Of a stretch of DNA of 64,000 nucleotides, positions 5,001 through 63,932 are shown piece by piece (position 1 is the stretch's first letter; the number at the start of each line of letters is the position of its first letter). The DNA comes from an uncultured bacterium. GTDB lineage: Bacteria > Patescibacteriota > Doudnabacteria > UBA920. A program made the position numbers and the translations under genes. The notes under the pieces were generated by a model, which was not told the origin of the DNA, ran no database searches, and saw only the letters and a program-made list of their open reading frames with translations. Location of the stretch: assembly GCA_963749445.1 (NCBI GenBank), contig CAVVMJ010000007.1:9971-73970 (forward strand). The letters are read 5' to 3'.

Positions 5001-5027
5001 GGCCACATTCCATTTTGGAATGTGGCC
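5001..5027. terminator. hairpin between convergent genes
   Basis: GGCCACATTCC-ATTTT-GGAATGTGGCC, a perfect 11-bp stem between the + operon end (4771) and the minus pilin gene end (5061). No clean U-tract on either strand. Confidence 0.4.
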
Positions 5028-5060
5028 ATCCCGAACGAAGTGAGGAATCTATTTAACTTT

Positions 5061-6542: not shown

Positions 6543-6548
6543 AATTTT

Positions 6549-9978: not shown

Positions 9979-9990
9979 ACTTTTTGATTT

Positions 9991-10485
9991 TTACTTCCCT
10001 GCCGGCGCGATGCCTTCTTCCACGTTATAGGAATTTGGGACGCAGGTATAACTGCTCGGGTTGGTCAAAGTAATGTAAGTCCACGGACTGGCAAAATCAA
10101 TTTTGCATTTGGACATTAATAGAATATTAACTGCGGTATTGACGAACATATACGCGGCCACGACCACAAAAAATCCTATGAATACCTGGGTTAACGCTCC
10201 CTTGTGTTTGGTAATGTCCTCCTCGTTGCCGCTGCTCGCCACCAGCCAAAAAGAATGTTCAACAATCTTGTAAACCGCGTAAAGCCCGGCCATGGCTATC
10301 AGCCAGTTGGTCACCCGCGCCACCCCGTAAAAAGCGTCCAAAACTCCGCAGGGATGATTATCCGTCGGCCCGCTGCCGCCGCAGGGAACTAGTCCAGCGG
10401 CATGGACGAAAAATGGCATAGAAAAAGCTATTGTTATTGTTAAGATTACCGCAACTAAAAGCCTTTTTTGTTTCAAGATAATCAT
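9991..10485 (-). CDS. TrbC/VirB2-like (T4SS-pilin family) membrane protein, divergent member
   Basis: Signal LLVAVILTITIAFSMPFFVHA; core FWLVASSGNEEDITKHKGALTQVFIGFFVVVAAY. First gene of the minus-strand pilin array. Confidence 0.7.
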   Translation of the reverse strand: MIILKQKRLLVAVILTITIAFSMPFFVHAAGLVPCGGSGPTDNHPCGVLDAFYGVARVTNWLIAMAGLYAVYKIVEHSFWLVASSGNEEDITKHKGALTQVFIGFFVVVAAYMFVNTAVNILLMSKCKIDFASPWTYITLTNPSSYTCVPNSYNVEEGIAPAGK

Positions 10486-10542: not shown

Positions 10543-10619
10543 GAAATTGCGAGGGCGTGCATCCGACCGAAGCAATCCCCAAAAAATAACCGGATTGCTC
10601 CGGCCACCCTCGCAATTTC
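10543..10619. repeat. palindromic element, GAAATTGCGAGG...CCTCGCAATTTC family
   Basis: GAAATTGCGAGGG...GAAGCAATCCCC...GGATTGCTCCGG...CCCTCGCAATTTC. Same termini and core as the copies at 28170, 43436 and 48538. Confidence 0.75.
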
Positions 10620-10727: not shown

Positions 10728-12024
10728 TCACTGCCCCGCAGTGATTGCGGCCGCTTGTTGTTCGGCTTGACTAAGCGAATCCTGCGCGCTCAACCCGTTT
10801 AAAATTACGTTATCAATCGCCTTGCCGAAAATGTTGTCCATCTTGGCCTGGTCCGGGCGGTAAAAAGATTTAGCGGTAAGGTTGGCGTTGGCAAACACGC
10901 CGATGTCCGGGTCCGGAATTTGCAGCTCAATAAGGTCGCGGCGCGAAGACGGCACTTTGTTTTGCGCGTAATATTGGTCCAGGCTGTCCTTGCTCGTTAA
11001 AAATTTTACCAAATCCCAGGCTGCGGCCAGTTCTTACTCTGTTTGCTCACCACCTCTCCCCAGTAGTTGGCAAAATTCACGGATGGGTTATTCAAATCCG
11101 GCTGCGGCACGCCGGCCACGTCAAAATTCAAATTGGGAGATTTTTGTAAGATGGTGGCGCGACTATAGGAATAGCTGTACAAAAACGCGGCGCGGCCGTT
11201 GGCAAAAGCGTCAATGGAATAATCGCTTTGGGCGTTCCAGTTGTAATTAGGGCTGGAAGGATTGGCAAAAGATGTGTAAAAACTCAAAGCACTGACTCCG
11301 GGATTGGTAAAATTGCCGTTTTTCTGAACCGGGTCGGCAAAAGTCGGCTGCATGCCGGTATAAGGCATGGTGCCCTGCTGCAGCATCATCAAATACAAAA
11401 TATCCACCGCGCGATTGACATTGGCGTTAGTACCTAATGCTACGCCGCTTTGCAAAAAATAACCGTGGCTGTCCTGCCGCTTGATTTTCTGCACATCCGT
11501 TGCCAGCTCGCTCCAGGTCTTCGGCGGCGTGGCAATCCCCGCGCTGCCCATCATATCCTTGTTATAATACAGCGCCAAAGAATCCACGGACATGGCCGCG
11601 CCGTAAATTTTTCCTGGCTGGTAAAATCGTTGACCACCGCGTCCACAAAGGTATCCTTAAAATCCTTCAAAGTAAAAATGGAAGCCGGCGAAGGCGTGGC
11701 TTTGTCCAAATACTGCGGCAGCCAGGCGTTGTTGATGGAAAAAATATCCGGCCCGTTGCCTGCGGCCAAAGCGTTCAGCAAATCCTGCTGGTAAGTGTTA
11801 ATGTCTTTTTTGGTGTAGACGATGGTAATATTGGGATTTTTTTGGCGGTAAGCGTCGAGCAGCGGCTGCAGGCTTTGGCTGTCCATAAACGGATTCCACA
11901 TGGTCAGGGTAATATTCCGCTGAACCGTAGTTGTCCCTCCCCCGCCGCATCCCGCCGCAAGCAAACTAAGGCCGATGGCGGATAAAAGCAATTTTGGTTT
12001 GAAAAATTTTCTTTTTGGTTTCAT
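10728..12024 (-). pseudogene. ABC transporter extracellular solute-binding lipoprotein (family 1), two frameshifts
   Basis: Three track ORFs (11551..12024, 11006..11593, 10728..11012) are consecutive parts of one SBP. Lipobox is LSLLAAGCGG. Junction 1 ...NDFTSQEKFT / PGKIYGAAMSVDSLALYYNKD lies near 11615; junction 2 ...VVSKQSKN / ELAAAWDLVKFLTSKDSL lies near 11030. Confidence 0.8.
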
Positions 12025-13041: not shown

Positions 13042-13122
13042 CTACTAAATACGAAAGTGGCTAAAAATACTAAACTTATGGTTTATAAGTTTAGTATTTT
13101 TAGATAATTTAGTATTTAGTAA
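13042..13122. terminator. long nested hairpin built from ACTAAAT-type words
   Basis: A perfect 19-bp stem: CTAAAAATACTAAACTTAT (13061-13079) with ATAAGTTTAGTATTTTTAG (13085-13103). It is nested in outer arms TACTAAATAC / GTATTTAGTA. Lies downstream of comM and upstream of galU. Confidence 0.5.
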
Positions 13123-14706: not shown

Positions 14707-15150
14707 TCAATCTTTATCCGCAATTCCCTTTTTATTCCAACCGGATGAGAAAAATAAAATAACTATGCCAATAATAATATATCCGTCCGCCAAATTATAA
14801 ACCCCCACCCACTTCCAAAAATGGATATAAATAAAATCCCGGACGTAACCCAAAACCAAGCGCTCGCCGACGTTCAAAGCGGCACCGGTAAAAATCAACA
14901 GCCAGGCCAAACTCTGCCCAAAACTAAATTGCCGAAAGTTTTTTGTACAATAAATTACCATGCCCAAAATTACCACAGCGTAAATTGTAAACATCAATCC
15001 GTTCGGCAGCGGCAGGCTGAACGCGAATTGCCTGTTCAAAAATTGATGGCTGACGATTTTTTTGGAGGCTTGATCAAAAACAATCAACAAAGCAAACAAA
15101 AAAACACCCAGCCCCCAAAAGCTCCTGGATGTTTTTTGAAAATTTTCCAT
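14707..15150 (-). CDS. lspA: lipoprotein signal peptidase II
   Basis: Four TM segments. Has FDQASKKIV and the C-terminal VRDFIYIHFWKWVGVYNLADGYIIIGIVILF motif (FNxAD). Confidence 0.8.
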   Translation of the reverse strand: MENFQKTSRSFWGLGVFLFALLIVFDQASKKIVSHQFLNRQFAFSLPLPNGLMFTIYAVVILGMVIYCTKNFRQFSFGQSLAWLLIFTGAALNVGERLVLGYVRDFIYIHFWKWVGVYNLADGYIIIGIVILFFSSGWNKKGIADKD

Positions 15151-15172
15151 TCCGGATTCTGAAATGAATGCT

Positions 15173-15268
15173 TTCCATTTCGACCGAATGCACCTGAGGG
15201 AGAAATCTATTAACTTCTAACTTCGGATATTAACGGATCTCTCCTCGACTGCACTCGTCGAGATGGGA
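15173..15268. repeat. CCATCCCGA-type imperfect palindromic element (family X)
   Basis: Left half TTCCATTTCGACCGAATGCACCTGAGGGAGAAATC is mirrored by GGATCTCTCCTCGACTGCACTCGTCGAGATGGGAA. Related copies at 38231, 57900 and 62440. Confidence 0.6.
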
Positions 15269-15284
15269 AAAAATATGCTAAGTT

Positions 15285-15638
15285 CTATAATGCCTTATCA
15301 GCCCACGGCATAGCGCGCAAACGGGCTTCGGGTATCTGTTTGCCTTCGTCGTCCGTCCCGTAAGTCCCCTGGCCGATTTTCGCCAAGGCTTTGTCAATTT
15401 TGGCCAAATCCGCCTGCATTACGGCAATCACGTCCTGGCTGGCTTCGTCCACGTTAATTTCCTCGGCATTTTCGTCTTCTTCGTCGCCCATTTCAGTATG
15501 AGCCGAAAGGCCGGCCAAATCATTCTCCAGTTGCCGCTTTTTTTGCAGCAGCTGTTTTTTCATTTCTTCGGTAAAAGATTGCGATAGCATATTTTTTTGA
15601 TTATCTGATGTAATTTCATTATAGCCGATATCCGTCAT
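15285..15638 (-). CDS. DksA/TraR-family protein lacking the C4 zinc finger
   Basis: A coiled-coil N-terminal part and a C-terminal GQGTYGTDDEGKQIPEARLRAMPWA, which aligns with the CxxC...IPxxRLxAxP region of DksA/TraR but has the Cys residues replaced. Confidence 0.6.
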   Translation of the reverse strand: MTDIGYNEITSDNQKNMLSQSFTEEMKKQLLQKKRQLENDLAGLSAHTEMGDEEDENAEEINVDEASQDVIAVMQADLAKIDKALAKIGQGTYGTDDEGKQIPEARLRAMPWADKAL

Positions 15639-28169: not shown

Positions 28170-28265
28170 GAATTTGCGAGGAGCCAGGGCTTTATCTGGC
28201 GACGAAGCAATCCCAAAATTTGAATGGGATTGCCGCGCCCCTCTCTGCATCGGGGCTCGCAAATT
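28170..28265. repeat. palindromic element, GAAATTGCGAGG family
   Basis: GAATTTGCGAGGAGCC...GGCGACGAAGCAATCCC...GGGATTGCCGCGCCCCTCTCTGCATCGGGGCTCGCAAATTC. Near-identical to 48538..48637. Confidence 0.8.
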
Positions 28266-28279
28266 CTGTTATTTGATAT

Positions 28280-29367: not shown

Positions 29368-29372
29368 AATCT

Positions 29373-29473
29373 CTACTAAATACTAAAGAATACGAAAGGT
29401 ACTAAATACGAAACTTAATGGCATGCTGATAGTTTCGTACATTTTAGTATTTCGTATCTTTAGTATTTAGTAG
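29373..29473. terminator. about 40-bp imperfect hairpin built from ACTAAAT/ACGAAA words
   Basis: CTACTAAATACTAAAGAATACGAAAGGTACTAAATACGAAACT faces AGTTTCGTACATTTTAGTATTTCGTATCTTTAGTATTTAGTAG. Lies downstream of the SH3 gene on the minus strand. Confidence 0.5.
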
Positions 29474-29536
29474 AAAAACAAGTCCCATCCCGACCAACCG
29501 GCCAAGACGGGACATATCAAACTTTATATTAAATTC

Positions 29537-34323: not shown

Positions 34324-34483
34324 GATTATTTGCGGAGCATCCCCTCCTATCTTAAGCTCTTTATTAGCACATAGGAGGGGTGTCCCGACTTGTCGGGACG
34401 GGGTGGTATCGTCATAATTTTCTACCACCTCCCCCGCCTGCGGCGGGTACTCCTCCTATAATAGGAGGAGGGGCTCCGCGGTT
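34324..34483. repeat. composite GC-rich palindromic block bounded by GCGGAGC...GCTCCGCGGTT
   Basis: Contains CCCCTCCTAT...ATAGGAGGGG, GTCCCGACTTGTCGGGAC, CCGCCTGCGGCGG and CTCCTCC-TATAATA-GGAGGAG, then GGGCTCCGCGGTT. The same tail occurs at 55112-55124 and 60274-60286. Confidence 0.65.
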
Positions 34484-37139: not shown

Positions 37140-37229
37140 GGAGAGGTGCGAGAGTGGTTGAATCGGGCGGTCCCGAAAACCGCTAGCTCCGCAAGGGGCT
37201 CGTGGGTTCGAATCCCACCCTCTCCGCCA
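37140..37229 (+). tRNA. tRNA-Ser(CGA), type II with long variable arm, CCA encoded
   Basis: Acceptor GGAGAGG/CCTCTCC. Anticodon stem GCGGT/ACCGC with loop CCCGAAA (anticodon CGA; position 33 reads C, not U). Variable arm TAGCTCCGCAAGGGGCT, T arm GTGGGTTCGAATCCCAC, then GCCA. Confidence 0.85.
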
Positions 37230-37950: not shown

Positions 37951-38664
37951 TTATATCAGGTGACTGCAAAAAGTTAGACGATGGATATCACTCAACCCGT
38001 GCCTAATAATCATTGTTCGATGAAACAACGTGCCGTAGCCTTTATGCTGGGCGAAGTTATAGATTGGATATTGCTGATGATATTTTTTCATCAAGTCATC
38101 GCGGAAAACTTTGGCCACAATGGACGCGGCGGCAACTGATAAAATTTTGTTGTCGCCGCCGACCACGGCTTCCTGGGCAAGGTTGACGCCGGGGATGGTG
38201 AACTTGCCGTCGATAAACAAAAATAGGCCGCCACCCCGACCGACGAGTGCATCCGAGGAGTGGAGGGGTCTGTTTATCTGTGTCTTTGACAGATTCCTCG
38301 ACTCGTCCGGCTGATGATGTTCCAATGCGGACTCGCTCGGAATGGAAGCTAATAAATTCTCTGCCGCCCTTTTCATCGCCAACAATGTTGCGTGGTGAAT
38401 GTTAACTCCATCAATAATTTTTTCATCCACCACCCCAATTCCCCACCAAGCGTGCTTTTTTATCGTAGACGATAATTCCTCGCGCTTCTTTGGTAATAAC
38501 AGCTTGCTATCCCTTATTCCCCGCTTCATATTCCATGTTTCAGGCTTCAAGATTACTGCCGCCGCTACTACCGGTCCGGCCAAACTTCCCCTGCCCACTT
38601 CATCGCAGCCGATAACGTAAGTATAGCCTTGTCTAAATTTTTGATTTTCGTATTTTGGAGACAT
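37951..38664 (-). CDS. rnhB: ribonuclease HII carrying an in-frame repeat-derived insertion
   Basis: From MSPKYENQKF...VIGCDEVGRGSLAGPVVAAAVIL, then IHHATLLAMKRA, DGKF, and SVAAASIVAKVFRD. The track start 38718 (MILDPGSRLHSAGMD) is read from an upstream repeat. Confidence 0.85.
   Translation of the reverse strand: MSPKYENQKFRQGYTYVIGCDEVGRGSLAGPVVAAAVILKPETWNMKRGIRDSKLLLPKKREELSSTIKKHAWWGIGVVDEKIIDGVNIHHATLLAMKRAAENLLASIPSESALEHHQPDESRNLSKTQINRPLHSSDALVGRGGGLFLFIDGKFTIPGVNLAQEAVVGGDNKILSVAAASIVAKVFRDDLMKKYHQQYPIYNFAQHKGYGTLFHRTMIIRHGLSDIHRLTFCSHLI
38231..38345. repeat. family X palindromic element inserted inside rnhB
   Basis: CCACCCCGACCGACGAGTGCATCCGAGGAGTGGAGGGGTCTG...CAGATTCCTCGACTCGTCCGG...GCGGACTCGCTCGGAATGG. 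It translates in frame as IPSESALEHHQPDESRNLSKTQINRPLHSSDALVGRGGG. Confidence 0.7.
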
Positions 38665-38890
38665 AAAAAATGTGTCCATCCCGGCCGAGTGCAGCCGAGA
38701 GCCGGGATCCAGAATCAAGCTTTATACTGGATCCTGGATATTTTTCACAGCCCTAAAAAATTCCAGGATGACTGCAATAAAGCATCGGCAGCTATCCGCA
38801 TATCCGGATCGGTTTTACATCAAACTCACCACGTGGAAAAAGGTTCCACCGTCTTTTTGGCTTATCTGCAACCCCGTGGCTGATGAAACA

Positions 38891-40091
38891 CTATTGCAAT
38901 TTCGCTGATCCGAATTTTTTTGAATTTAGGTGTTTGAGCACGTTTGATTCAAAAGTAAACGTCACGCTACGTTTTTGCTGATACCTTGCCTCGGCGAAAG
39001 CTATCAATTTTTGCAGCAACTGGCCAAATTCCACTCCGCTGGCTTTCCATAAATGATGATACAGCGTGCCGGGCAAAGGATTAACCTCATTGGCAAAAAA
39101 TTTATTGGATGATTTGTCCAGCAAAAAATCCACGCGCGCGATGCCGCAGCAGCCAAGCGCGCGGTACACCTCTTTGGCTGTATTTTGAATCGCCGATGTT
39201 ACGCCCGCATCCAGCCGCGCCGGAATTATCACCCCGCCCTGCGATTTGCCCAATTGCGCGCCCCCGCCTTTTAAGTATTTTTCCTCAAAATCAAACAAAT
39301 CGGAAGCAAACGTCGATTCCTGCAAAGCTGATGCCGTCAAGTCGTCGTTACCGATAATACAACACGTCACATCCATCACATTTTCCACGCCCTCTTCCAC
39401 CAGAACCTTGTTATCATAATGCAGGGCCACCTCAACCCGGAATTCCAAATCTTTCAAGTCCTGATTTTTGACTTTGGCGATGCCAATGGACGAACCCAAA
39501 TGCACCGGCTTTACAAACAGAGGGTATTTTAATTCACTAATTCTCTTATTCACTAATTCTTTATTTCTCTCCCATTCGTTTTTAGTAAAATAAACAAATT
39601 TTGTGGTCGGGATGCCCGCCTGCCGCATCACGATTTTCGTCAGCGCCTTGTCCATGGAAACGGCGGACGACGGCACATCGCAGCCCACGTAAGGGATGCC
39701 GAACATTTCAAACAAACCCCTGGATGGTGCCGTCTTCGCCGTAAGAGCCGTGCAGCGCGGGAAACGCCAGGTCGATGGTTATTGATTTTCCCATCAGCCC
39801 TTTCTTTCTGAATACCATTTTTCCGATTGATTCTTCAAGATCCAAATAATACCGCGCGTAGGCCGGCTTGCCCTCCGTAGCTTTAGCGAAGGAGGGGTCC
39901 GTAAATAACTTCATATTGCCCAAATCCTCGCCGAGCATCCACTTACCCTGCTTGGTAATGTAAACCGGCGTCACTTGATAGCCCAAACCTTTTAGCCCGG
40001 CGATAATCAGCTGGCCGGTAATAATGGACACGTCATGCTCCGGCGATCCACTTCCAAAAAACACCCCGATATTTTTGTTCAATTTTGTCAT
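38891..40091 (-). CDS. ddl: D-alanine--D-alanine ligase, interrupted by a 1-nt frameshift as sequenced
   Basis: The N-terminal part ends HGSYGEDGTIQGFV*. The C-terminal part starts (L)FEMFGIPYVGCDVPSSAVSMDK. The expected GEDGTIQGLFEMFGIPYVG is restored by removing one T in GGGTTTGTTTG (about 39708-39720). Confidence 0.9.
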
Positions 40092-40109: not shown

Positions 40110-41571
40110 TTATAAATACTGGTCTCCCCAGTCATTCTGGAACACCACCACGTCGCCAGGCTGCACGATGTTTTTTAACGACTCATGCATGTCCAGCGCC
40201 GTGTCAAACCAGACGATTTGTGGTTTGTCTCCACCCTTAGCCCTTAGCCCTATACCCTCTGCAATCCACGGCGTCGCGCTGTCCCTAATCAGTATAACCA
40301 CATCGGCCACCGCTGCCAACTGCCGGCCGATTTGCCGGTGGACTTCGGCCGTAGCGGCGCCGATTTCCACCAGACCGGGCGTAATGTAGATTTTGCGCCG
40401 GCCATTAAAGCGCGACAAAACACTTACGGCCTCGGCCGCGCCGGCCGGGTTACCGTTATAACTGTCGTCAATCACCAAAACCCCGCTGGCCGAAATTATG
40501 GGCTTCAGCCGGTGCTCCACGGCCCGGACCTGCGACAGCCCAACCTTAATGTCCACAACGCTCAACCCCAAATGTTCGCCCACGGCCATCGCCGCCACGG
40601 CCGCGCCAATGCTGTATTCGCCGAGCAAAGCCAAGGAAAACGCGCCGTGATTTTTGACATTAAAACTCCAGGCCAGCTGACTTTGGTCAAATTTTTGGTC
40701 ACTGACAAAATAATCGGTCCGACCGCCTTCGCGGCCGGAATAAAAACGCACTTCCCGGCCACCGGTATAGTCCTTAAAATGGCTCACCACCCGCTCGTCG
40801 TCGCCGTTCATAATCACCAACGCTTCCGGCTTGGCGAATTCCGCGGCTTCAAAAATCGTGGCGATGATGTTACCCAAACTGCCCATGCGCTCCAAATGCG
40901 CTTCGTTAATGCCCGTGATTATGGAAATATCCGGCCGCGCGATGTCGCACAACTCTTTAATGTCGCCGCGGTAATGCTCGCCCAGTTCCAAAATTAATAT
41001 TTTCGTGTCATCGCCGACTTTATTCAAAATAAACCGCGCAATACCCACCGGCGTATTCACGCTCTCCGGTGGGCTAAGAACTGCGTACTGTGTACTGAGC
41101 ACTGATCGCAGCACTTCACTTCACCGTAGTCTTGCCATAGCTGCCGGCTATGCCGATAATCTTTAAATCTTTCAATCTTTCAATCTTCAATCTCGCCTGT
41201 TTGGCCAATTTATTTTTGGCGTAACCGTCCAGCGGCCGAATCAAAATCAGCGCAATGCTGTACCATAAAAAATAAAGCCAAAAACCGGCTATAAAACAAA
41301 CAATCACAAAAATTTGCGCCCCGTCAGTCCCGCCAAAAACCAAAAACGAGGCCGCTGCCGGAAAAATCGCAAACAGCAAATGCAAAGCAACGGCCATAAC
41401 CATCAAAGCTTTGGCCTTGGCCGTCCACACCAGCTCTTTTCGCTGCGGCTGGTGCTTGTCCGGAAAAAATCCCTTAATCTTAAGCAATTTCCAATACCTC
41501 CCCAGCTCATAATTTTCCAGTTGGAGCAGGTAAAGTTGATATTTGATGAATTTTGGGACAAATATGTCCAT
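40110..41571 (-). CDS. murF: MurF-like Mur ligase with N-terminal two-TM domain, interrupted by a 1-nt frameshift as sequenced
   Basis: N-terminal part: TM helices ALMVMAVALHLLFAIFPAAASFLVF and IFVIVCFIAGFWLYFLWYSIALILI, then IIGIAGSYGKTTVK*. The C-terminal part from GTG 41114 reads VLRSVLSTQY...NTPVGIARFIL...DDSYNGNP. Junction GTGAAGTGAAGTG at 41108-41120. Confidence 0.8.
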
Positions 41572-41617: not shown

Positions 41618-42398
41618 TCAGGTGATAAATTTTTTCAAAATCTCTGCAAACTCCTCCGGCTGGTCCAAAAAACTAAAATGCCCGGCGTTTTTTAGAATTG
41701 CGAATTGCGAATTGCGAATTAACGAATTCATTTTTTTGCCAAAACTGACAGGGGTGTCCGCGTCGTTTTCACCGCTGATAATTAAGGTTGGACATTTTAT
41801 ATTTTCCATATCGGACGATAAATCTTCGCCTGTGATGTTAACAAACGTTTTTTGCAGTTCCGGCGTAGCCAGGTAATCTTCCGCGTCGATTTTTTGGTAG
41901 ATTTTTTTCCTCAATCCTTGCATAAATGCCGACTTAAAAAACGGTTTTGCGATTTTTGCCGCGGACCGATAAAAATTTTTCTTGGGTGTGTCCATGGCAA
42001 ACCCCGCGCTGTCCACCAAAACCAATTTTCTGACAAGTTCCGGATGCGCAGATGACAATTTTATCCCAACCCTTCCCCCAAACGAATGACCGATAACAAT
42101 TACGTCAGTCAAATCCAATTTTTTTATAAACTCCGCCACCACTTCCGCATAATCCCCCACCGTCATCGGCAACTTCAGGAGCCTGTGATCCGCCAAACCC
42201 GGGTAAATCTATAGCAAACAATTGACGATTGACGATTGACGATTGACTCATCACGTTCGCCCAAACTTCCTTGCTGCTCCGCCATCCGTGCAAAAACAGC
42301 AGAGTCCCCGCGCCCTGGCTTTTATCCTCGCTGTAGCTGATTAACAAATCCTTGATGATTATCTGCTTATCCATATCTATATAATACCATTGCTTCAT
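41618..42398 (-). CDS. alpha/beta-fold hydrolase, interrupted by a frameshift as sequenced
   Basis: The N-terminal part reads LLFLHGWRSSKEVW...FAIDLPGFGGS. The C-terminal part reads ...MTVGDYAEVVAEFIKKLDLTDVIVIGHSFGGRVG (nucleophile elbow GHSFGG) ...AGHFSFLDQP. Shift near 42185-42200. Confidence 0.8.
41695..41720. repeat. tandem heptamer (GAATTGC) x3.7 inside hydrolase CDS
   Basis: gaattgc x3 plus gaatt. Encodes NSQFAIL in the minus-strand gene. Confidence 0.9.
42221..42247. repeat. tandem heptamer (ATTGACG) x3.9 inside hydrolase CDS
   Basis: attgacg x3 plus attgac. Encodes QSSIVNRQ in the minus-strand gene. Confidence 0.9.
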
Positions 42399-42509: not shown

Positions 42510-42632
42510 ATATCTTGTTTATTGTTCCGGACAAAAATAACCCTTATTAGGGTTCAATTATTAGCGGTTTGGTCAAAGCCCGTTAGGGCGCAGACCGCGA
42601 GCGAGTCCCGATATCAATCGGGATGAGTGAAG

Positions 42633-42706: not shown

Positions 42707-42882
42707 TTATGAAAATAACGATGAACAATTAACCATTCACGATTAACCATTTATGTTCGGGTTAATTGTCAATCGTAAATTGTTAATTGTATTTGGGTAT
42801 TTTACTGGTTTTGATTGATTTCGGCAAGAGCCAATCCCCTATTGCGTCACATTGACCTTATATTGCTGGCCGTTGGGCAAAG

Positions 42883-43401: not shown

Positions 43402-43435
43402 ATACAAAATTCAAATTGCAAAACTTAAAACAAGC

Positions 43436-43550
43436 TGAAATTGCGAGCCCCGATGCAGAGGGGCGCGGCAATCCCATAAAATTGACGGGATTGCTTCGCC
43501 CGCCTTCGCTGAAGCTTCGGCGGATAAATCGGATGCACTCCTCGCAATTT
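43436..43550. repeat. palindromic element, GAAATTGCGAGG family, inverted orientation with internal insertion
   Basis: GAAATTGCGAGCCCCGATGCAGAGGGGCGCGGCAATCCC...GGGATTGCTTCGCCC...CCTCGCAATTTC. Confidence 0.8.
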
Positions 43551-47940: not shown

Positions 47941-48510
47941 TTAGATTTCTTTTTTCAGGCGTTTTGATACCAGCCATTTGGCAAAAAAGTAAAGGCCGAT
48001 AAATATTAACGGGATTACTTCCGCAAACCGGAGATAATTTTTAAATTGATGGTAAGAAGCGCTAAAAATAAATCCTAAACTGCCGATTATGGCCAGCCAA
48101 ATTACCCCAATGTAAGCGGAGTCTTTCATAAATTTTTTAAAAGGCAACCTTATCATACCGCTTCGAATAAGTAGGCCGTGATGCAGGCCGTAAATAAATT
48201 TGGATATCAGCAGAGTATGGAAAGGCCGCGCCAGCAAATGCCGGTCAAACGGCGCGGCGACTTTATTGGCCCATTTGGCCAGCCATTCCCGCTTGGATAA
48301 TTTCATCCCCAACCAGTAAAACCCCAACTGCTCGGCAAAAATCCCGAGCAATAAAACCAAAAGCCCCGGCGCGATGCCGATAATTTTATCGGCCATCAAA
48401 AAAACCGCAGCAAACACGGTCAGTGCGGCGTCAATGAACATCCCGCAAAATAGGGCAAAATAGATGTAATTTTGCAACTGGTGCGCCTGGATAAAATGGA
48501 CGATGTGCAT
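47941..48510 (-). CDS. DedA/VTT-family membrane protein
   Basis: From MHIVHFIQAHQL...; pattern FAEQLGFYWLGMKL...FDRHLLARPFHTLLISKFIYGLHHGLLIRSGMIRLPFKKF. The track start 48633 (MRAPMQRGARQS...) is read out of the adjacent repeat. Confidence 0.6.
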   Translation of the reverse strand: MHIVHFIQAHQLQNYIYFALFCGMFIDAALTVFAAVFLMADKIIGIAPGLLVLLLGIFAEQLGFYWLGMKLSKREWLAKWANKVAAPFDRHLLARPFHTLLISKFIYGLHHGLLIRSGMIRLPFKKFMKDSAYIGVIWLAIIGSLGFIFSASYHQFKNYLRFAEVIPLIFIGLYFFAKWLVSKRLKKEI

Positions 48511-48537
48511 AAATATTGATGGATCATCTAAGCAGAT

Positions 48538-48637
48538 GAAATTGCGAGGAGCCGAGGGCTTTTTATCTGGCGACGAAGCAATCCCGATACTTAACTGGGA
48601 TTGCCGCGCCCCTCGCTGCATCGGGGCTCGCAATTTC
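48538..48637. repeat. palindromic element, GAAATTGCGAGG family
   Basis: GAAATTGCGAGGAGCCGAGGGC...GGCGACGAAGCAATCCCGATACTTAACTGGGATTGCCGCGCCCCTCGCTGCATCGGGGCTCGCAATTTC. Confidence 0.85.
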
Positions 48638-48692
48638 CGGGCATTTGGGATTTTGCAATTAAAGACTGACTCTACCTATCAAGGAACATTAG

Positions 48693-55033: not shown

Positions 55034-55122
55034 AACAGTTAATTAGATGGCAACCAATACACCTCATCTGTCGCTCCGATGCAGTCGCGACATCTTCCCC
55101 TCCAGGGGAAGAGGCTCCGCGG

Positions 55123-56694
55123 TTAAACCCCGCGCAATAATTCTATTTTGGCGCCAATCTTGCGCAGGCGCGAGACGAGGTCTTCGTAGCCGCGGTTGAT
55201 GGAGTAGGCGTTGCGGAGGATGGAGGTGCCTTTGGCCGCCAGCATGGCGACCAGAATGTTGGCGGCCGGGCGCAGGGCGGGAGGACAAATGACTTCTGCG
55301 CCGCGGAGCTCGGTCGGCCCTTCAATGTATACCCGATGGGCATCGGCCAAAATTATATTGGCGCGCAGCTTGGTTAATTCCATATAGTAAATTGCGCGGT
55401 TTTCGTAAACCCAGTCGTGGATTAAAGTTGTGCCCTTGGCCTGCGTGGCAATGGGCACAAAAAACGGCAAATTGTCTATATTTATGCCCAATCCGCCGGG
55501 CAACGGGTGCAATTTTTCCTCCAGCGCCTTGAGTTTGGAAGGAAAAGCTTGCACATCGGCCAAATTGGTTATGCCGTTATAACTTTTGTACTGTTTGATA
55601 ATTTTATAGCGGAAACCCATTTTTTCCAGCTTTAAAAGTTCAAGCTCCAAAAAATCAATCGGGCAACGCTCAATCGTCAGCGAAGAATTCGTCGTGGCCG
55701 CGATGGCCAAAAACAGCATTGACTCAATCGGGTCTTCGCTTAAATAATAACTGACGGTTTGGTTGATATGCGGTTTGCCGTGGACAACAAGAGTGGAAGA
55801 ACCGACCCCGTCTATTTTTACGCCCAGGGCAATAAGGAAATGGCACAAATCCCGCACCATATAATTGGCGCTGGCCATTTTGATGATGGTAATGCCGGGC
55901 AAGCGCGCGGCAGCCATTAAGGCATTTTCCGTAACCGTATCACCGGTTTCATAAAGTACGATTTCGGAGGTTTTCCCGCCGGAGGCGGATCCGCCTTTGG
56001 CGGAAAGTCCAACCGATGTGACCTGGTAATTATCATGGGTGGTTTTAACTTTAACGCCCAGTTTTTCCAAAGCGAACAAATGCGGCCGCACCGTGCGCGC
56101 GCCAAGGCGGCAGCCGCCGGGGTGGGGAAGGGCAAAATTTTGCAGCAGATGAACCAGCGGCCCAAGCAGCATCAGCACGCTGCGCGTTTTGGCCGCGGAC
56201 TCCACGTCCATAGCCTTTAAATTCAGCCTTTTTGGCGGAATAATTTGCAAATCCCGGTCTTTCCATTTCACATCCACGCCAATGCTTAAAAGAACTTCCA
56301 CCATCCGATAGACCTCTTCAATCTTGGGAACTCTTTTGAGTATGGTCTTGCCCGAATTGAGCAGGCTCGCGCACAGCAGAGCCACGGCCGCGTTTTTAGA
56401 GGTGTTGGTGGTTACTTTGCCGGAAAGTTTAAACCCACCTTCAATTTTAAAATTAACGCTTTGGCCGCCCAAAGTAATAATTTCCCGCCCCAGCACGGCG
56501 CTGATTTTAGCCAGGGTTTCCGTTGTTAAATTCTGCAAACCGTTTTCCATGCGGGCCACGGCCGATTGGGAAGTTTTCAGCAGCACGGCAAACTCCGCCT
56601 GGGTCAAGCCCTTTTGTTCGCGCGTCTGGCTAATAAACCGGCCGATTCTGGCCTGTTCTTGGGCGATATTTTTAGTTAAAGCCACATTTGGCAT
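55123..56694 (-). CDS. murA: UDP-N-acetylglucosamine 1-carboxyvinyltransferase with N-terminal XRE-type HTH domain
   Basis: N-terminal FISQTREQKGLTQAEFAVLLKTSQSAVARMENGLQN (XRE HTH). Then the MurA body: KIEGGFKLSGKVTTNTSKNAAVALLCASLL...GGCRLGARTVRPH...IIKMASANY...IHDWVYENR. 523 aa versus about 420 for typical MurA. Confidence 0.9.
   Translation of the reverse strand: MPNVALTKNIAQEQARIGRFISQTREQKGLTQAEFAVLLKTSQSAVARMENGLQNLTTETLAKISAVLGREIITLGGQSVNFKIEGGFKLSGKVTTNTSKNAAVALLCASLLNSGKTILKRVPKIEEVYRMVEVLLSIGVDVKWKDRDLQIIPPKRLNLKAMDVESAAKTRSVLMLLGPLVHLLQNFALPHPGGCRLGARTVRPHLFALEKLGVKVKTTHDNYQVTSVGLSAKGGSASGGKTSEIVLYETGDTVTENALMAAARLPGITIIKMASANYMVRDLCHFLIALGVKIDGVGSSTLVVHGKPHINQTVSYYLSEDPIESMLFLAIAATTNSSLTIERCPIDFLELELLKLEKMGFRYKIIKQYKSYNGITNLADVQAFPSKLKALEEKLHPLPGGLGINIDNLPFFVPIATQAKGTTLIHDWVYENRAIYYMELTKLRANIILADAHRVYIEGPTELRGAEVICPPALRPAANILVAMLAAKGTSILRNAYSINRGYEDLVSRLRKIGAKIELLRGV
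55976..56003. repeat. 28-nt GGATCC-centred mini-palindrome inside murA
   Basis: CCGCCGGAGGCGGATCCGCCTTTGGCGG. In the gene sense it encodes SAKGGSASGGK. A near-identical copy lies at 63182-63209. Confidence 0.8.
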
Positions 56695-56897: not shown

Positions 56898-57017
56898 TAA
56901 AGTTTTAAGTTATAAGTTGTGGCGGCCGGTACGGTCATAGGGATATGGTTTTAGGCGACTTACAACCTATTACCTACAACTATACTGGCCGCCATACCTT
57001 ATAACCTATTCCCCATC

Positions 57018-57227: not shown

Positions 57228-57371
57228 AAATAGTAGCGTTCCCAAATATACAAATCAACACAAATATACAAATTACTGACAGTGCTATAGATTTGTATAT
57301 TTGTTAAAATTTGTATATTTGCGATTACTACAATTATAGCATTTGAAAGGATTTGAACGCAAGCCGCCGGA

Positions 57372-57881: not shown

Positions 57882-57899
57882 TATTTCTCCACCCTTGGA

Positions 57900-58027
57900 T
57901 TCCATCCCGAGCGAGTCCTCAATGTACTCTCAAGACGAGCCGAGGGATCTATCCAATATAGCAGATCCCTCCACTCCCCCTCGACTCGTCCGCTTCGCGG
58001 TGCTCGCTCGGGGTCGGTCGGGATGGA
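57900..58027. repeat. family X palindromic element
   Basis: TTCCATCCCGAGCGAGTCCTC...GAGGGATCTATCCAATATAGCAGATCCCTCC...CTCGCTCGGGGTCGGTCGGGATGGA. Confidence 0.7.
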
Positions 58028-58118
58028 CACTTATCTAGACAAGTTATGAAGTTGTTAAATCAAAAAGGTAAATAAAACAAAACCGGTTATCAGCAATTAA
58101 TCATAGAAAGGAAAAACA

Positions 58119-58562: not shown

Positions 58563-58662
58563 ATAGCGATACTAATATACGAATGCATACGAATGATACT
58601 AATAATACGAATTCGTATTATTCGTTTCATTAGTATCAATTAGTATACTGGTATCTTTTAAT

Positions 58663-60197: not shown

Positions 60198-60329
60198 TCA
60201 ATGGGTTAAACATTATTTTCCCTCCAACCACCCCGTCTCGCGAAGCTCACCACCCCTCCTCAGCAAGGAGGGGAAGCTCCGCGGTTCAGCGACATATCAG
60301 CGTCCCTATCAGCGACGTATCAGCGGAAT

Positions 60330-62249: not shown

Positions 62250-62439
62250 AGAAATTGGTAGAAATATGCCCCGATAAATCGGGACGAAATTTATTGAAAT
62301 TGGTTGCTGTAGGGGCGGGTCTAGACCCGCCCTTTTCTTTGCCCGAAAACGGATTTAGCCTGCCCTTGCCCAAACTGTGGAAATTGATTATACTATGGGG
62401 CTGATATAATAAATATTGAAGCGAGATTATCTAGTTGTG

Positions 62440-62509
62440 CCATCCCGACCGAAGTGGATGGATCTATTATTAACAGATTCCTCGGCTCGGATGCACTCGA
62501 TCGGAATGG
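62440..62509. repeat. family X palindromic element, short form
   Basis: CCATCCCGACCGAAGTGGATGGATCTATTATTAACAGATTCCTCGGCTCGGATGCACTCGATCGGAATGG. Ends 9 nt before the rbfA start. A half copy lies at 5025-5055. Confidence 0.7.
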
Positions 62510-62517
62510 AATAATGT

Positions 62518-62880
62518 ATGAGACCAGTAAAAAAAGACACCAACCGCATTGCCAAGGTCAATTCGCTAATTAGGCGCGAGTTGGGACCGATTTTGTTAGT
62601 GTTTTTACAGGGGATGGAGGGATTAGTGACCATTACCAAAGCCGACACCAGCAAGGATATGAAGTGGTGCAAGGTTTGGATTTCCATTTTGGGCGGAGAT
62701 GATGATAAAATTTTAGGTTATCTTGCAAAAAATATTTACGACATCCAGGGCGAGCTGAATAAATATTTTTTCACTAAAATTATCCCGCGGATTTCCTTTC
62801 ACCTGGATACCAGCCCAAGGTACGCGCAGCATATTGATGAAGTGATACGGAAGATACACGATGAAGAAGAGACAATTTAA
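62518..62880 (+). CDS. rbfA: ribosome-binding factor A
   Basis: RIAKVNSLIRRELGPIL...VTITKADTSKDMKWCKVWISIL...IPRISFHLDTS. Canonical position after infB. Confidence 0.9.
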   Translation: MRPVKKDTNRIAKVNSLIRRELGPILLVFLQGMEGLVTITKADTSKDMKWCKVWISILGGDDDKILGYLAKNIYDIQGELNKYFFTKIIPRISFHLDTSPRYAQHIDEVIRKIHDEEETI

Positions 62881-62946
62881 GAATTACGGATTGCGGATTA
62901 CGAATTCGTAATGCGCAATCCGTAATTAATAATTCCTATTAAGTTA

Positions 62947-63932
62947 ATGCAGCAAGATTTTATTAAAGCCAAACAACTAATTGACCAATCCCAAAACATC
63001 CTCCTGACAATGCATGAGCGGATGGACGGGGATGACGGCGGCAGCGTGCTGGCCGTTTTTCATCATTTGGCCAAAAACGGCAAGCAGGTCACCTGCGCCA
63101 TCAAAAAGGGCGTACCGCTCGCTTTGCGTTTTCTGCCCGGCAGCGAAAAAATCGCCGATGACATCAGCCATCAAAATTTTTCCGCCGAAGGCGGATCCGC
63201 CTCTGGCGGAGACTTTGATCTACTGATAATGTTCGGATGCTCTGCCAAAGACCGCTGCGGCAGCGAAGATATTATCAATTTGAACGTGCCTACGATTAAT
63301 TTTGACCACCATCCCGACAACTCCCATTTTGCCGACGTGAACGCCGTGGATCCGGCCAAATCTTCCGTGGCGGAGATAATTTATGACTTTTTCCGCTTCC
63401 ACAACTGGCCCATAACCCCCGAAGTCGCCACTTGTCTTTTGACCGGAATTATTACCGACACAGGCTCATTTATGCACGCCAACACCAAAAACTCTACGCT
63501 CAAAACCGCGGGCGAGCTGATGCGCAAAGGCGCCCAAACCAACCTTATCATTAAACACACTTCCCTGGGCAAAAATCCCCAAATTTTAAAAGCCTGGGAC
63601 AGGCTTTGGAAAACTCGCATTACGATAAAAAACACAAAATTATTTACGCTGTAATGACGGGAGAAGATTTACTCAATTTTAAAAACCTGCCGCAGGCGGC
63701 CTTTGAAGGATTCGTGGAAACGTTGAATACTTACCCGGATGCAAAGTTCGCCATGTTTTTGCGGCAGGACGGCGACGTAATTAAAGGCAGCCTGCGCTCC
63801 GACCCTTATAAAAATATTGATGTTTCCCAAATCGCCAAAGCCTTTGGCGGCGGCGGCCACAAACTGGCGGCGGGGTTTTCGCTGGCGGGAAAACTGACTA
63901 AGGACGAGGCGGGAAAATGGCGCGTAATTTAA
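62947..63932 (+). CDS. DHH-family phosphoesterase (NrnA-like), interrupted by a 1-nt frameshift as sequenced
   Basis: The N-terminal part has HERMDGDDGGSVLAV, FDHHPDN and GIITDTGSF. The C-terminal part (track 63606..63932) has SLRSDPYKNIDVSQIAKAFGGGGHKLAAG. Joined as QILKAWGQALENSHYDKK by adding one G at 63596-63598. Confidence 0.85.
63182..63209. repeat. 28-nt GGATCC-centred mini-palindrome inside the nrnA-like gene
   Basis: CCGCCGAAGGCGGATCCGCCTCTGGCGG encodes SAEGGSASGGD. It differs at 2 of 28 positions from the murA copy. Confidence 0.8.

What the first reader, a model, noticed from the sequence alone, without database searches (positions are those of the whole stretch)
38231..38345. Palindromic repeat inserted in frame inside RNase HII (RPE-like behaviour)
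rnhB carries about 38 extra codons (IPSESALEHHQPDESRNLSKTQINRPLHSSDALVGRGGG) between the conserved HATLLAMKRA and IDGKF segments. From memory, E. coli RNase HII has only about 9 residues there.

The inserted DNA belongs to the CCATCCCGA-type palindromic family seen in intergenic regions:
- 15173-15268
- 57900-58027
- 62440-62509
- half copies at 5025-5055, about 38675-38745 and about 42575-42620

The intergenic copy at 57900 translates in one frame to the parallel peptide IPSESSMYSQDEPRDLSNIADPSTPPRLVRFAVLARGRSGW. In-frame colonisation of protein genes by palindromic repeats is established for Rickettsia palindromic elements. I am not aware of it being characterised for this lineage.
Basis: partly seen in the sequence, partly recalled or inferred. 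Interest (0 to 1): 0.7.

Follow-up and report, generated by a model that had tools for sequence, protein, structure and literature searches.

The report
Hairpin repeat inside RNase HII gene
A 117-base hairpin-forming repeat that lies between genes of this ultra-small (Patescibacteria) bacterium also sits in frame inside its RNase HII gene, adding a floppy 38-residue loop. About two thirds of related genomes carry such repeats at the same spot, so the "selfish DNA inside proteins" behaviour known from Rickettsia also occurs in this lineage.

Summary
rnhB (37951-38664, minus strand) carries a net 38-residue insert where T. maritima and E. coli RNase HII have 4-5 residues. The inserted DNA (38231-38347) is an imperfect palindrome. 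A profile built only from the three intergenic copies (15172, 57898, 62435) finds it at E = 7.7e-10.

AlphaFold predicts an intact RNase HII core with the insert as a low-confidence loop.

The case is not isolated:
- 70 of 104 parsed Patescibacteria orthologues have 12 or more extra residues at this loop.
- These come from at least four palindrome families, verified at DNA level, and the families are mixed across the gene tree.
- The element's paired arms are 98-100% identical between genomes whose flanking rnhB codons are 64-74% identical.
- The insert lacks the codon-position pattern of its host gene, so conservation acts on nucleotides, not on the peptide.

Other genes also carry in-frame palindromes: murA-like and DHH genes in the window; murF, recJ-like, atpG and mnmA in related contigs.

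Best reading: a non-autonomous REPIN/MITE-like palindromic element, translated through and tolerated in a permissive loop. This is RPE-like behaviour in a new lineage. The mobilising enzyme, target rule and expression remain untested. No paper describing this in Patescibacteria was found.

The parts
37951..38664 (-). rnhB (RNase HII) coding sequence, 237 aa, intact reading frame
   Evidence: Pfam RNase_HII 4.3e-32 in two stretches. An identical 237-aa protein, P0001, is in the public collection. Catalytic D21, E22, D152 and D171 and the HKGY motif are invariant in the alignment. The AlphaFold core matches E. coli and T. maritima RNase HII.
38231..38347 (-). Palindromic repeat element inside rnhB, 117 nt from terminal repeat to terminal repeat. 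In gene sense it reads TTCCATTCCGAGCGAGT...GTCGGTCGGGGTGG.
   Evidence: nhmmer with a profile of the intergenic copies only gives E = 7.7e-10; with the wider family profile, 7e-20. Predicted hairpin -45 kcal/mol, z = -2.2 as RNA.
38227..38343 (-). Codons for residues 108-146 (IPSESALEHHQPDESRNLSKTQINRPLHSSDALVGRGGG), the insert as translated
   Evidence: Coordinates. The region has pLDDT 45-54 and lies between helix 89-107 and strand 147-152. It is absent from solved RNase HII structures.
38231..38254 (.). Outer-stem arm; pairs with 38329-38347
   Evidence: Terminal pairs show compensatory changes between subfamilies.
38329..38347 (.). Outer-stem arm; pairs with 38231-38254. This is the left arm in gene sense, and it is identical in five orthologues.
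38258..38304 (.). Inner stem (38258-38273 / 38289-38304) with a variable apical loop
   Evidence: The inner-stem pairs CG<->UA covary.
15172..15271 (.). Intergenic full copy, between two minus-strand ORFs (14707-15150 and 15285-15638) whose families were not checked
   Evidence: DNA hairpin z = -3.3.
57898..58030 (.). Intergenic full copy, after the DUF4446 gene
   Evidence: DNA hairpin z = -3.7.
62435..62514 (.). Intergenic short copy, between the 639-aa ORF ending at 62249 (IF-2-like by eye) and the ORF starting at 62518
   Evidence: Its hairpin is weak (DNA z = -1.0).
38672..38733 (.). Partial (left-half) copy in the ddl-rnhB spacer, just upstream of the rnhB start. It forms its own 8-bp hairpin.
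   Evidence: nhmmer E = 0.01-0.04. Hairpin z = -2.6. A related relative (L081) also has a palindrome in the ddl-rnhB spacer.
5025..5057 (.). Possible truncated copy; weak support
   Evidence: One mismatch to the terminal-repeat core. nhmmer E = 0.05.
55972..56006 (-). A different 35-nt palindrome, in frame in the HTH + EPSP-synthase-fold (murA-like) gene; read as SAKGGSASGG
   Evidence: (I8).
63179..63211 (+). A second copy of the same short palindrome, in frame in a DHH-family gene; read as SAEGGSASGG
   Evidence: (I8).

Best explanation
The 117-nt segment is one copy of a non-autonomous palindromic repeat. The family has two inverted arms of about 40 nt around a variable loop, is 75-145 nt long, and is built like a REPIN or MITE. 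Copies are dispersed through this and related Patescibacteria genomes.

**Shown**
- One copy lies inside rnhB, in the loop between the helix ending ...AMKRAAENL and the beta strand FLFIDGKF that carries a catalytic Asp.
- It keeps the reading frame and contains no stop codon.
- It shares nucleotide sequence with intergenic copies.
- Its arms are conserved as nucleotides, not as codons.

**Inferred**
- The ribosome reads through it and makes a 38-residue disordered surface loop.
- The enzyme tolerates this because the loop lies at the end of the strand away from the active site.
- The peptide itself is not selected.
- The loop is a recurrent site of insertion or retention. Out-of-frame or disruptive insertions elsewhere are removed by selection.

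**Speculative**
- How the element moves. The absence of target-site duplications and the hairpin architecture suggest a single-strand (HUH/Y1, RAYT-like) transposase acting in trans.
- Gene conversion between copies may keep the arms uniform.
For: **Same family as the intergenic copies**
- Profile built from intergenic copies alone finds the rnhB copy at E = 7.7e-10.
- All four window copies share the CCAT terminus and the ATCT(A/G)T inner-stem variant.

**A real insertion**
- Net +38 residues against solved RNase HII structures.
- The segment is about 9 residues in most of 64 parsed distant orthologues.

**Core enzyme intact**
- All invariant catalytic residues are kept.
- AlphaFold model: mean pLDDT 87.8, target-normalised TM 0.93 to E. 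coli RNase HII. Insert pLDDT is 45-54.

**Mobile and recurrent**
- 70 of 104 parsed orthologues have 12 or more extra residues at this segment. The next most variable internal segments have 14, 3, 0 and 0.
- Families a, b, c and d are each palindromic DNA at the same site and are intermingled on the gene tree.
- P0003's core is closest to P0030 (81% aa), but its element is nearly identical to the window's: 79 stem positions with no mismatch.

**Nucleotide-level, not peptide-level, conservation**
- Identity at codon positions 1/2/3 is 75.8/82.1/50.6% in the core and 72.4/73.0/64.7% in the element. The contrast (position 3 minus mean of 1 and 2) is -28.3 [-32.0, -24.6] against -8.0 [-16.0, -0.3].
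- The element's first 17 nt are 97.6% identical in five orthologues. The adjacent, amino-acid-invariant helix codons are 74% identical and the DGKF region 64%.
- 5 of 20 consensus pairs show double compensatory changes.

**Same behaviour in other genes**
- Window: murA-like and DHH genes.
- Relatives: murF in two loci.
- Metagenome contigs: RecJ-like, ATP synthase gamma and MnmA-like ORFs (identified from their translations, no family scan), read in different frames and orientations.
- A short palindrome is nested inside the element in L090 and L163.

**Mostly intergenic**
- 24 of 27 canonical copies are not in long ORFs. They average 1.8 open frames of 6, and their lengths show no multiple-of-3 bias.

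**Precedent**
- RPEs, REPs and BRE elements are documented in frame in coding genes (PMC10969869, PMC3733652, PMC3184786).
Against: - No empty-site/filled-site pair among close relatives was available. The best homologue is 62% identical, so the insertion event, its exact boundaries and any target duplication are not shown.
- No transposase was found:
  - Neighbours of 64 ORFs near copies are ordinary genes, judged from the 25 most frequent families shown of 92.
  - None of the roughly 37 window ORFs scanned is a transposase.
  - The only lead is a weak Y1_Tnp hit in one relative's contig.
- Translation of the insert is inferred only from frame conservation. The rnhB orthologues were found through intact proteins, which biases toward in-frame cases.
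- The window's rnhB copy is closer to the rnhB copies of P0003 and P0004 than to its own intergenic copies. This fits old inheritance plus constraint at least as well as recent transposition.
- Extreme conservation of the arms could mean function rather than selfishness.
- The rnhB copy is a weak hairpin as DNA (z = -1.2).
Confidence: 0.78

Rival explanations
1. The palindrome is a functional nucleic-acid element kept by selection. Possibilities are a hairpin in the rnhB mRNA or in single-stranded DNA that controls expression, stability or replication/repair, or a protein-binding site. On this view the peptide is a by-product.
For: - The arms are 98-100% identical where host codons are 64-74% identical.
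- Conservation follows the paired regions, while the loop and the bulge vary.
- Compensatory changes occur in 5 of 20 pairs.
- The site is occupied in about two thirds of orthologues.
- The window copy resembles rnhB copies of other genomes more than its own intergenic copies.
Against: - At least four unrelated palindrome sequences occupy the site, and 29 of 120 orthologues have none. No particular sequence is therefore required.
- The same elements sit in unrelated intergenic and genic contexts.
- There is no sense/antisense folding asymmetry.
- There is no Rfam family.
- The rnhB copy itself is partly decayed.
- Replicative spread plus gene conversion can also explain conserved arms.
Confidence: 0.12
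2. The element is removed before translation, at RNA level like an intervening sequence or intron, or by DNA excision. The protein would then lack the 38 residues.
For: - Patescibacteria are unusually rich in introns and rRNA intervening sequences (PMC13011429, abstract seen).
- A 23S-rRNA-IVS protein gene lies in the window.
- Long hairpins are natural RNase III substrates (general knowledge).
Against: - All 11 rnhB inserts checked at DNA level (8 of family a plus one each of b, c, d) keep the frame without stops.
- So do the 9 other genic copies seen.
- Intergenic copies have only about 31% of frames open and no length bias. Excision would not require an open frame.
- No ligation system for bacterial mRNA hairpin removal is known (general knowledge).
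- There is no Rfam intron match.
Confidence: 0.05
3. The segment is a lineage-specific protein loop inherited vertically from an ancestor of this clade, and the resemblance to intergenic DNA is secondary.
For: - Homologous peptides occur at the same site in orthologues of 52-63% identity.
- The right-hand boundary is within two residues in all of them.
- The closest relatives of the window copy are other rnhB copies.
Against: - The insert does not show the codon-position pattern of a selected peptide.
- Amino-acid identity is lower than in the core, yet third-position identity is higher.
- The distribution is patchy and does not follow the tree, with several unrelated families at the site.
- Intergenic copies match significantly.
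- Distant lineages lack it.
Confidence: 0.04
4. Assembly or binning artefact: a repeat wrongly joined into rnhB.
For: The window contains genes split by apparent single-base frameshifts (ddl, murF, a solute-binding protein), so the assembly is not error-free.
Against: - Independent assemblies from JGI, ENA, NCBI and Logan show the same arrangement in many orthologues.
- The insert is exactly in frame, and both flanks are contiguous rnhB.
Confidence: 0.01

Closest known systems
Rickettsia palindromic elements (RPE; Ogata et al. 2000, as summarised in PMC10969869 and PMC3733652)
   Same: - Palindromic repeats of about 100-150 bp, with copies both between genes and in frame inside unrelated housekeeping genes.
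- The host proteins keep their conserved residues.
- The insert is predicted at the protein surface.
- Several families coexist.
   Different: - The host lineage is different (Patescibacteria, not Rickettsia).
- The termini are different (GTCAT/TCCAT...ATGAC/ATGGA, not CGTC-tagged).
- Here one loop of one gene is occupied in about two thirds of orthologues by several families. I did not find this reported for RPEs.
- No sequence comparison with RPE consensus sequences was possible.
REP / REPIN elements mobilised by RAYT tyrosine transposases (PMC2817692, PMC3337134, PMC3733652)
   Same: - A doublet of two inverted units around a spacer forms a long hairpin.
- Single half-units also occur as short hairpins (38672-38710; L081 murF).
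- Copies are mostly extragenic with occasional in-frame genic copies.
- There is no evident target duplication.
- G-T pairs occur in the stems.
   Different: - There is no GTAG or CGTC tag.
- No RAYT gene was found in the window or next to copies; there is one weak Y1_Tnp hit in a relative.
- The units are longer (about 40 nt) than classical REPs.
Bacterial MITEs (Correia/NEMIS, ERIC, RUP, BRE)
   Same: - Small non-coding elements with terminal inverted repeats and a variable interior, present in multiple copies.
- Some are fused in frame to ORFs (BRE sits inside about 9 genes; PMC3184786).
   Different: - No target-site duplication is seen.
- No parent insertion sequence with the same terminal repeats was identified.
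- The whole element is palindromic, not only its ends.
Palindromic coding repeats of Methanocaldococcus jannaschii (recalled from memory: Suyama et al. 2005; not checked here)
   Same: Palindromic repeats with coding potential inserted in genes.
   Different: These are archaeal and unrelated in sequence as far as I recall. Not tested.

Membership tests
RNase HII (host gene) | Pfam RNase_HII domain, the DEDD catalytic residues, and the RNase H-like fold | tested here: met
   Pfam hit 4.3e-32. D21, E22, D152 and D171 are invariant. Foldseek to 3o3g, 7uwe_C and 3o3f gives E about 1e-20 to 1e-21, with target-normalised TM 0.79-0.93.
RPE-like in-frame palindromic elements (behavioural class) | A multi-copy palindromic repeat of about 100-150 bp in the same genome | tested here: met
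   Four full copies in 64 kb. Hairpin folds.
RPE-like in-frame palindromic elements (behavioural class) | Copies inserted in frame in conserved protein genes that otherwise look functional | tested here: met
   rnhB. Other genes in the window and in relatives.
RPE-like in-frame palindromic elements (behavioural class) | The insert is compatible with the protein fold, as a surface loop | tested here: met
   AlphaFold: insert pLDDT 45-54 between helix 89-107 and strand 147-152, core pLDDT above 90. This is a prediction only.
RPE-like in-frame palindromic elements (behavioural class) | The inserted peptide is actually expressed | not testable with these tools
   Needs transcriptomics or proteomics.
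Rickettsia RPE families proper | Sequence homology to RPE-1 to RPE-10 and a CGTC end tag | tested here: not met
   The termini are (G/T)(T/C)CAT...ATG(A/G)(C/A), with no terminal CGTC. No RPE consensus sequences were available for direct alignment. The host is a Patescibacterium.
REP/REPIN | A GTAG (or CGTC) tetranucleotide at one end | tested here: not met
   Alignment of 27 canonical copies and the window copies.
REP/REPIN | An associated RAYT (Y1 transposase) gene flanked by the repeats | tested here: inconclusive
   None among the roughly 37 window ORFs scanned. None appears among the 25 most frequent families shown (of 92) for 64 ORFs near copies. There is one weak PF01797 hit in the P0005 contig. 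Whole genomes were not available.
REP/REPIN | Inverted doublet of short hairpin units around a spacer; mostly extragenic | tested here: met
   (half-unit hairpin at 38668-38745). 24 of 27 canonical copies are not in long ORFs.
MITE | Terminal inverted repeats, small size and no coding capacity of its own | tested here: met
MITE | Target-site duplication flanking each copy | tested here: inconclusive
   Flanks of about 12 canonical copies and 3 window copies were inspected by eye. No consistent duplication was seen. No empty sites were available for comparison.
MITE | A parent insertion sequence with the same terminal repeats | not tested
   Would need complete genomes.

The most novel reading that the evidence does not exclude
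The rnhB loop is not merely permissive. It may be a preferred landing or retention site for hairpin elements, by homing-like targeting or by insertion into earlier palindromes. Alternatively, the hairpin embedded in the coding sequence may itself be under selection. Either would explain three observations:
- The paired arms are identical across genomes whose rnhB genes have diverged by a third of their nucleotides.
- About two thirds of orthologues carry a palindrome at this site.
- Element type does not follow the gene tree.

Patescibacteria would then hold a class of conserved nucleic-acid elements living inside essential genes, and their proteomes would be systematically decorated with palindrome-encoded disordered loops.
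Probability: 0.15. Interest if true: 0.8.

Novelty: new member of a known kind. Interest (0 to 1): 0.55.

Why it matters
- **Genome streamlining.** Patescibacteria have tiny, streamlined genomes, yet here selfish or structured palindromes persist inside essential genes. This bears on how streamlining and mobile DNA coexist.
- **Annotation.** Many "lineage-specific insertions" and odd low-complexity segments in CPR proteins (peptides such as VIPSECSRVEES...GRDD, CHCE...PRND, GGSASGG) may be repeat-derived. They can distort alignments, phylogenies and structure predictions.
- **A natural experiment.** A single loop occupied by different families in most orthologues allows study of insertion tolerance, element turnover and possible target preference.
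- **Open question.** Arms that are conserved far beyond the host gene raise the testable question of whether these hairpins are purely selfish.

Tried and rejected
**Searches that gave nothing usable**
1. A profile of 14 insert peptides was searched against 5.8 billion proteins. It gave only 3 hits at E <= 10, because the peptides are too short for the database size.
2. The 39-residue window peptide was searched with phmmer against 1.84 billion representatives: 0 hits at E <= 0.001. A protein-level census of host families was therefore not possible.
It returned only distant orthologues (37-43% identity), useful as insert-free controls but not as close relatives.
4. Looking up the source contig of P0001 failed: not on record, and no name is attached.
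5. P0005, the nearest neighbour on the tree, had no retrievable DNA.
6. Rfam found no family at gathering threshold or at E <= 1.
7. The viral contig scan gave a single hit in a 63%-GC contig that was also in the metagenome set. There is no sign of phage carriage.

**Tests with negative or inconclusive outcomes**
1. Transposase near copies: not found.
2. Target-site duplications: none consistent, judged by eye.
3. Sense versus antisense folding of genic copies, to test for an RNA-strand-specific structure: no consistent difference.

**Candidates rejected**
1. The half copy at 42575-42620 and the pair of terminal-repeat-like motifs at 29485/29651 are not supported by any profile.

**Method caveats**
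1. In high-GC metagenome contigs, several matches to the 19-mer were unrelated coding sequence (by eye it resembles actinobacterial trpC; not verified). These were excluded.
2. The first anchor-based measurement of distant loop lengths mis-anchored sequences with IDAM instead of IDG, such as Streptococcus. It was corrected by inspection.
Full report
**1. The observation**

The minus-strand ORF 37951-38664 encodes a 237-aa RNase HII. The Pfam RNase_HII match (4.3e-32) comes in two stretches separated by the region in question. An identical protein is already in the public collection (P0001).

Against T. maritima RNase HII (3o3g), residues 9-105 align to chain 5-97 and residues 148-232 to chain 102-184. 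The solved enzyme has 4 residues where this one has 42. E. coli RNase HII has 5.

The extra peptide IPSES...GRGGG is residues 108-146 (codons 38227-38343). The DNA element runs from terminal repeat to terminal repeat at 38231-38347.

**2. Is it the same repeat as the intergenic copies?**

Yes.
- A search for the terminal core CCATCCCGACCGA with mismatches recovers both ends of four elements: 15175, 38231/38345, 57902/58026 and 62440/62509.
- An nhmmer profile built from the three intergenic copies alone finds the rnhB segment nearly end to end (38240-38347) at E = 7.7e-10 within the window.
- The three other copies lie between genes.
- All fold as long hairpins with an outer and an inner stem.
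- Against dinucleotide shuffles, the intergenic copies at 57898 and 15171 are strong (DNA z = -3.7 and -3.3). The copy at 62437 is weak (-1.0). The rnhB copy is a partly decayed palindrome (RNA z = -2.2, DNA z = -1.2).
- No Rfam family matches.

**3. The host and the protein**

The nearest homologues are unnamed metagenome proteins. The named ones are Candidatus Doudnabacteria or Patescibacteria. Gene order (abhydrolase, murF, ddl, rnhB) is shared with all relatives fetched.

All invariant RNase HII residues are present. An AlphaFold model built on 34 orthologues has pLDDT above 90 for the core and 45-54 for residues of roughly 108-146. These residues lie between helix 89-107 and strand 147-152. 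The core superposes on E. coli and T. maritima RNase HII (target-normalised TM 0.93 and 0.79).

I infer, but could not measure, that the loop is remote from the active site. It precedes the N-terminal end of the strand whose C-terminal end carries the catalytic Asp152.

**4. The same loop in orthologues**

This is the main new result.
- In 120 homologues (47-63% identity), the segment between the helix and the IDGKF strand ranges from 11 to 73 residues.
- In 104 sequences that could be parsed with fixed anchors, 70 have 12 or more extra residues at this segment. The next most variable internal segments have 14 and 3, and two core segments have none.
- The inserts fall into recognisable peptide families:
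  - a: (V/S)IPSECSRVEES...SLHSSSDAL.LGRDD, the window's family, 19 cases.
  - b: CHCE...PRND, 20 cases.
  - c: GLP..KQAEGLHY, 7 cases.
  - d: VILRP...AQDD, 6 cases.
  - e: VIPEFF...GSRL...GRDD, about 11 cases.
  - n: NSHEL, 7 cases.
  - 20 are unclassified and often look degenerate.
  - 29 have no insert.
- At DNA level, eight family-a inserts and one each of b, c and d are all palindromes.
- Families a, b and d share GTCAT...ATGAC termini.
- On a rough neighbour-joining tree of the core (202 columns), families are intermingled, with sister pairs such as a/d, a/c, a/e, a/b and a/none. The tree is weakly resolved, but the mixture is too thorough for a single gain.
- Most of the 64 parsed distant orthologues from other phyla have about 9 residues here. 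A Pseudobdellovibrionaceae genome and some Clostridiales have their own inserts, so the loop is generally permissive.

**5. What is conserved: nucleotides, not the peptide**

Across eight family-a orthologues, the host core shows the usual codon pattern. Identity at positions 1/2/3 is 75.8/82.1/50.6%, with amino-acid identity 69.7%. The element shows 72.4/73.0/64.7%, with amino-acid identity 57.1%. The contrast (position 3 minus the mean of positions 1 and 2) is -28.3 [-32.0, -24.6] for the core and -8.0 [-16.0, -0.3] for the element.

In the five orthologues of the TCCAT subfamily (window, P0003, P0004, P0012, P0031):
- The element's first 17 nt are 97.6% identical, and the next block CGAGTCGAGGAATCTGT is invariant.
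- The adjacent codons of the amino-acid-invariant helix are 74% identical, and the DGKF region is 64%.

Between the window and P0003, all 79 aligned stem positions are identical. Differences are confined to the apical loop and to indels, including a 20-21-nt extra stretch in the window's left arm. The flanking gene is 67% identical, and 48% at third positions.

Conservation follows the paired regions; the loop and a right-arm bulge vary. Between subfamilies, 5 of 20 consensus pairs changed on both sides and kept pairing, for example terminal GC/UA to UA/CG and inner CG to UA. There is no sense/antisense folding asymmetry.

P0003's core is closest to P0030 (81% amino-acid identity), but its element is closest to the window's. 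The window's copy is closer to the rnhB copies of P0003 and P0004 than to its own intergenic copies.

These facts exclude a protein loop evolving under peptide selection. They do not decide between three alternatives: recent or repeated insertion, concerted evolution with other copies, and selection on the hairpin.

**6. The family elsewhere**

Low-GC contigs (38-50% GC) carry a well-defined canonical element:
TGTCATTCCGAGCGAGTGCATCCGAG(Y)CGAGGAATCCCTTAA - variable loop - TTAAGGGATCCCTCCRCTCC.TCAGATGCATTCGGTCGGTCGGGATGACA.
There are shorter variants. In two cases a GGSASGG-type palindrome is nested in the right arm.

Of 27 such copies:
- 24 are not inside long ORFs. They average 1.8 open frames of 6, and their lengths are spread over all residues modulo 3.
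- 3 lie in frame in conserved genes: a RecJ-like protein, ATP synthase gamma (two inserts) and an MnmA-like protein (two inserts). I identified these from their translations and ran no family scan on them. They are read in different frames and orientations.

High-GC contigs carry related GTCATTCCGAGCGA...TCGCTCGGAATGAC palindromes, so the superfamily is wider than Patescibacteria. About 1.2 Mb of other bacterial DNA gave no significant hit to the family profile.

In the relatives' loci, murF carries in-frame palindromes in L083 and L081, and the ddl-rnhB spacer of L081 holds another.

In the window itself, a different 35-nt palindrome is in frame in a murA-like gene (SAKGGSASGG) and in a DHH gene (SAEGGSASGG).

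**7. Mechanism**

- **Shown:** a multi-copy palindromic element; an in-frame, stop-free copy in a predicted disordered loop of an otherwise intact enzyme; recurrence of several families at the same loop; nucleotide-level conservation of the stems.
- **Inferred:** read-through translation, tolerance rather than selection of the peptide, and purging of disruptive insertions.
- **Speculative:** mobilisation.
  - No consistent target duplication is visible.
  - No transposase lies near copies or among the roughly 37 window ORFs scanned.
  - The only lead is a weak Y1_Tnp hit in the contig of P0005.
  - The doublet-of-hairpins architecture, with half-units also occurring alone (38672-38710; L081 murF), resembles REP/REPIN elements moved by RAYT transposases (PMC3337134, PMC2817692). 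The GTAG/CGTC tag that defines those superfamilies (PMC3733652) is absent.

**8. Rivals**

- A functional hairpin is the strongest rival (0.12), because of the extreme conservation of the arms and the high occupancy of the site. Against it are the unrelated families at the site, the insert-free orthologues and the decay of this copy.
- Removal before translation (0.05) is disfavoured. Every genic copy examined keeps the frame, whereas intergenic copies mostly do not. The rnhB set was ascertained through intact proteins, so this argument is not airtight.
- An ancestral loop (0.04) and an assembly artefact (0.01) are disfavoured for the reasons above.

**9. Comparison with what is known, and novelty**

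In-frame palindromic repeats are established for:
- Rickettsia RPEs.
- GTAG/CGTC REPs in Opitutus terrae, Thauera and other species.
- BRE and other elements.

Seven full-text searches found nothing on palindromic, REP or MITE-type repeats in Patescibacteria/CPR. The library is incomplete, so prior description cannot be excluded.

I therefore class this as a new member of a known kind. Two features go beyond the precedent as I found it described: a single loop that is a clade-wide hot spot for several families, and stems conserved far beyond the host gene.

**10. Limits**

- No close empty site, no complete genome, no expression data and no coordinates for distance measurements were available.
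- The gene tree is rough.
- The 120 orthologues were ranked by similarity to an insert-bearing query, which may slightly favour family a.
- The window has several apparently frameshifted genes, so sequence quality is imperfect. This does not affect an insert that is in frame.

Noticed in passing
window 39700-39720, 41105-41120 and 11551-11593: Three genes are each split into two ORFs by apparent single-base frameshifts. ddl splits into 39708-40091 plus 38891-39715, with the shift in GGGTTTGTTTGAA. murF splits into 41116-41571 plus 40110-41114, with the shift at AAGTGAAGTG. A solute-binding protein splits into 11551-12024 plus 11006-11593. The abhydrolase gene 41618-42196 also looks N-terminally short. 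These are either assembly indels or real pseudogenes.
   Followed up: partly
window 55972-56006 and 63179-63211: A second palindrome family (TTTCCGCC..AGGCGGATCCGCCT..GGCGG) occurs twice in the window. Both copies are in frame in genes: a murA-like gene (SAKGGSASGG) and a DHH-family gene (SAEGGSASGG). The same peptide appears at another loop of rnhB in P0030 and P0045, and the palindrome is nested inside the larger element in L090 and L163.
   Followed up: partly
window 10568-10605, 28191-28266, 43414-43501, 48562-48660: A third palindrome family (CGAAGCAATCCC...GGGATTGC, with GCGAGCCCCGATGCAGAGGGGCGCG) has four copies. The first three look intergenic from the ORF map. The copy at 48562 runs into the mechanical N-terminal extension of ORF 47941-48633. 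Peptides of this type (IASS...) resemble the family-b inserts at the rnhB loop of other genomes.
   Followed up: partly
window 13043-13121, 29372-29474, 42712-42803, 56906-57008, 57229-57335, 58568-58655, 62877-62932: Long AT-rich palindromes built from TACGAA/TACTAA/ATACAAAT-like units, most of them between mechanical ORFs. They may be terminators or another repeat family.
   Followed up: no
window 39708-40091 (ddl N-terminal part): The peptide SFAKATEGKP is encoded by a small hairpin (CCCTCC...GGAGGG). The same peptide (FAKATEGKPNF, or FAEATEGKPNF) is inserted after the IDGKFTIP strand of rnhB in P0045 and P0012. This is probably yet another short in-frame repeat.
   Followed up: partly
window 5061-10485: A cluster of genes with the T4SS-pilin domain (5061-5765, 5775-6173, 9991-10485 scanned; a 187-nt direct repeat D1 has four copies at 5132-7766). 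A 23S-rRNA intervening-sequence protein gene (7966-8307) lies among them.
   Followed up: no
window 34449-34483, 55090-55124, 60252-60286: A short hairpin followed by the conserved GGCTCCGCGGTT occurs three times, near the ends or starts of mechanical ORFs. This may be a regulatory or terminator motif.
   Followed up: no
window 37140-37229: ARAGORN calls a tRNA-Ser(CGA), but Rfam at gathering threshold did not list it. Mechanical ORFs overlap it on the minus strand.
   Followed up: no
contig of P0005 (no DNA retrievable), genes at 928-1413: A 161-aa product with a weak Y1_Tnp (PF01797) hit lies between the abhydrolase and murF genes, in the same syntenic block as rnhB. It is the only candidate mobilising enzyme seen.
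   Followed up: no
L027 (Pseudobdellovibrionaceae) and L032/L042/L064 (Clostridiales) rnhB: Distant lineages have their own 10-30-residue inserts at the same helix-to-strand loop, so the site is permissive well beyond Patescibacteria.
   Followed up: no
L088, L114, L122, L140 and other high-GC loci: Related palindromes (GTCATTCCGAGCGAGTGCAGCGAGTCGAGGAATCGC ... CTTCGCTCGGAATGAC) occur in 64-69% GC contigs. The GTCAT-ended superfamily therefore extends to other phyla.
   Followed up: no
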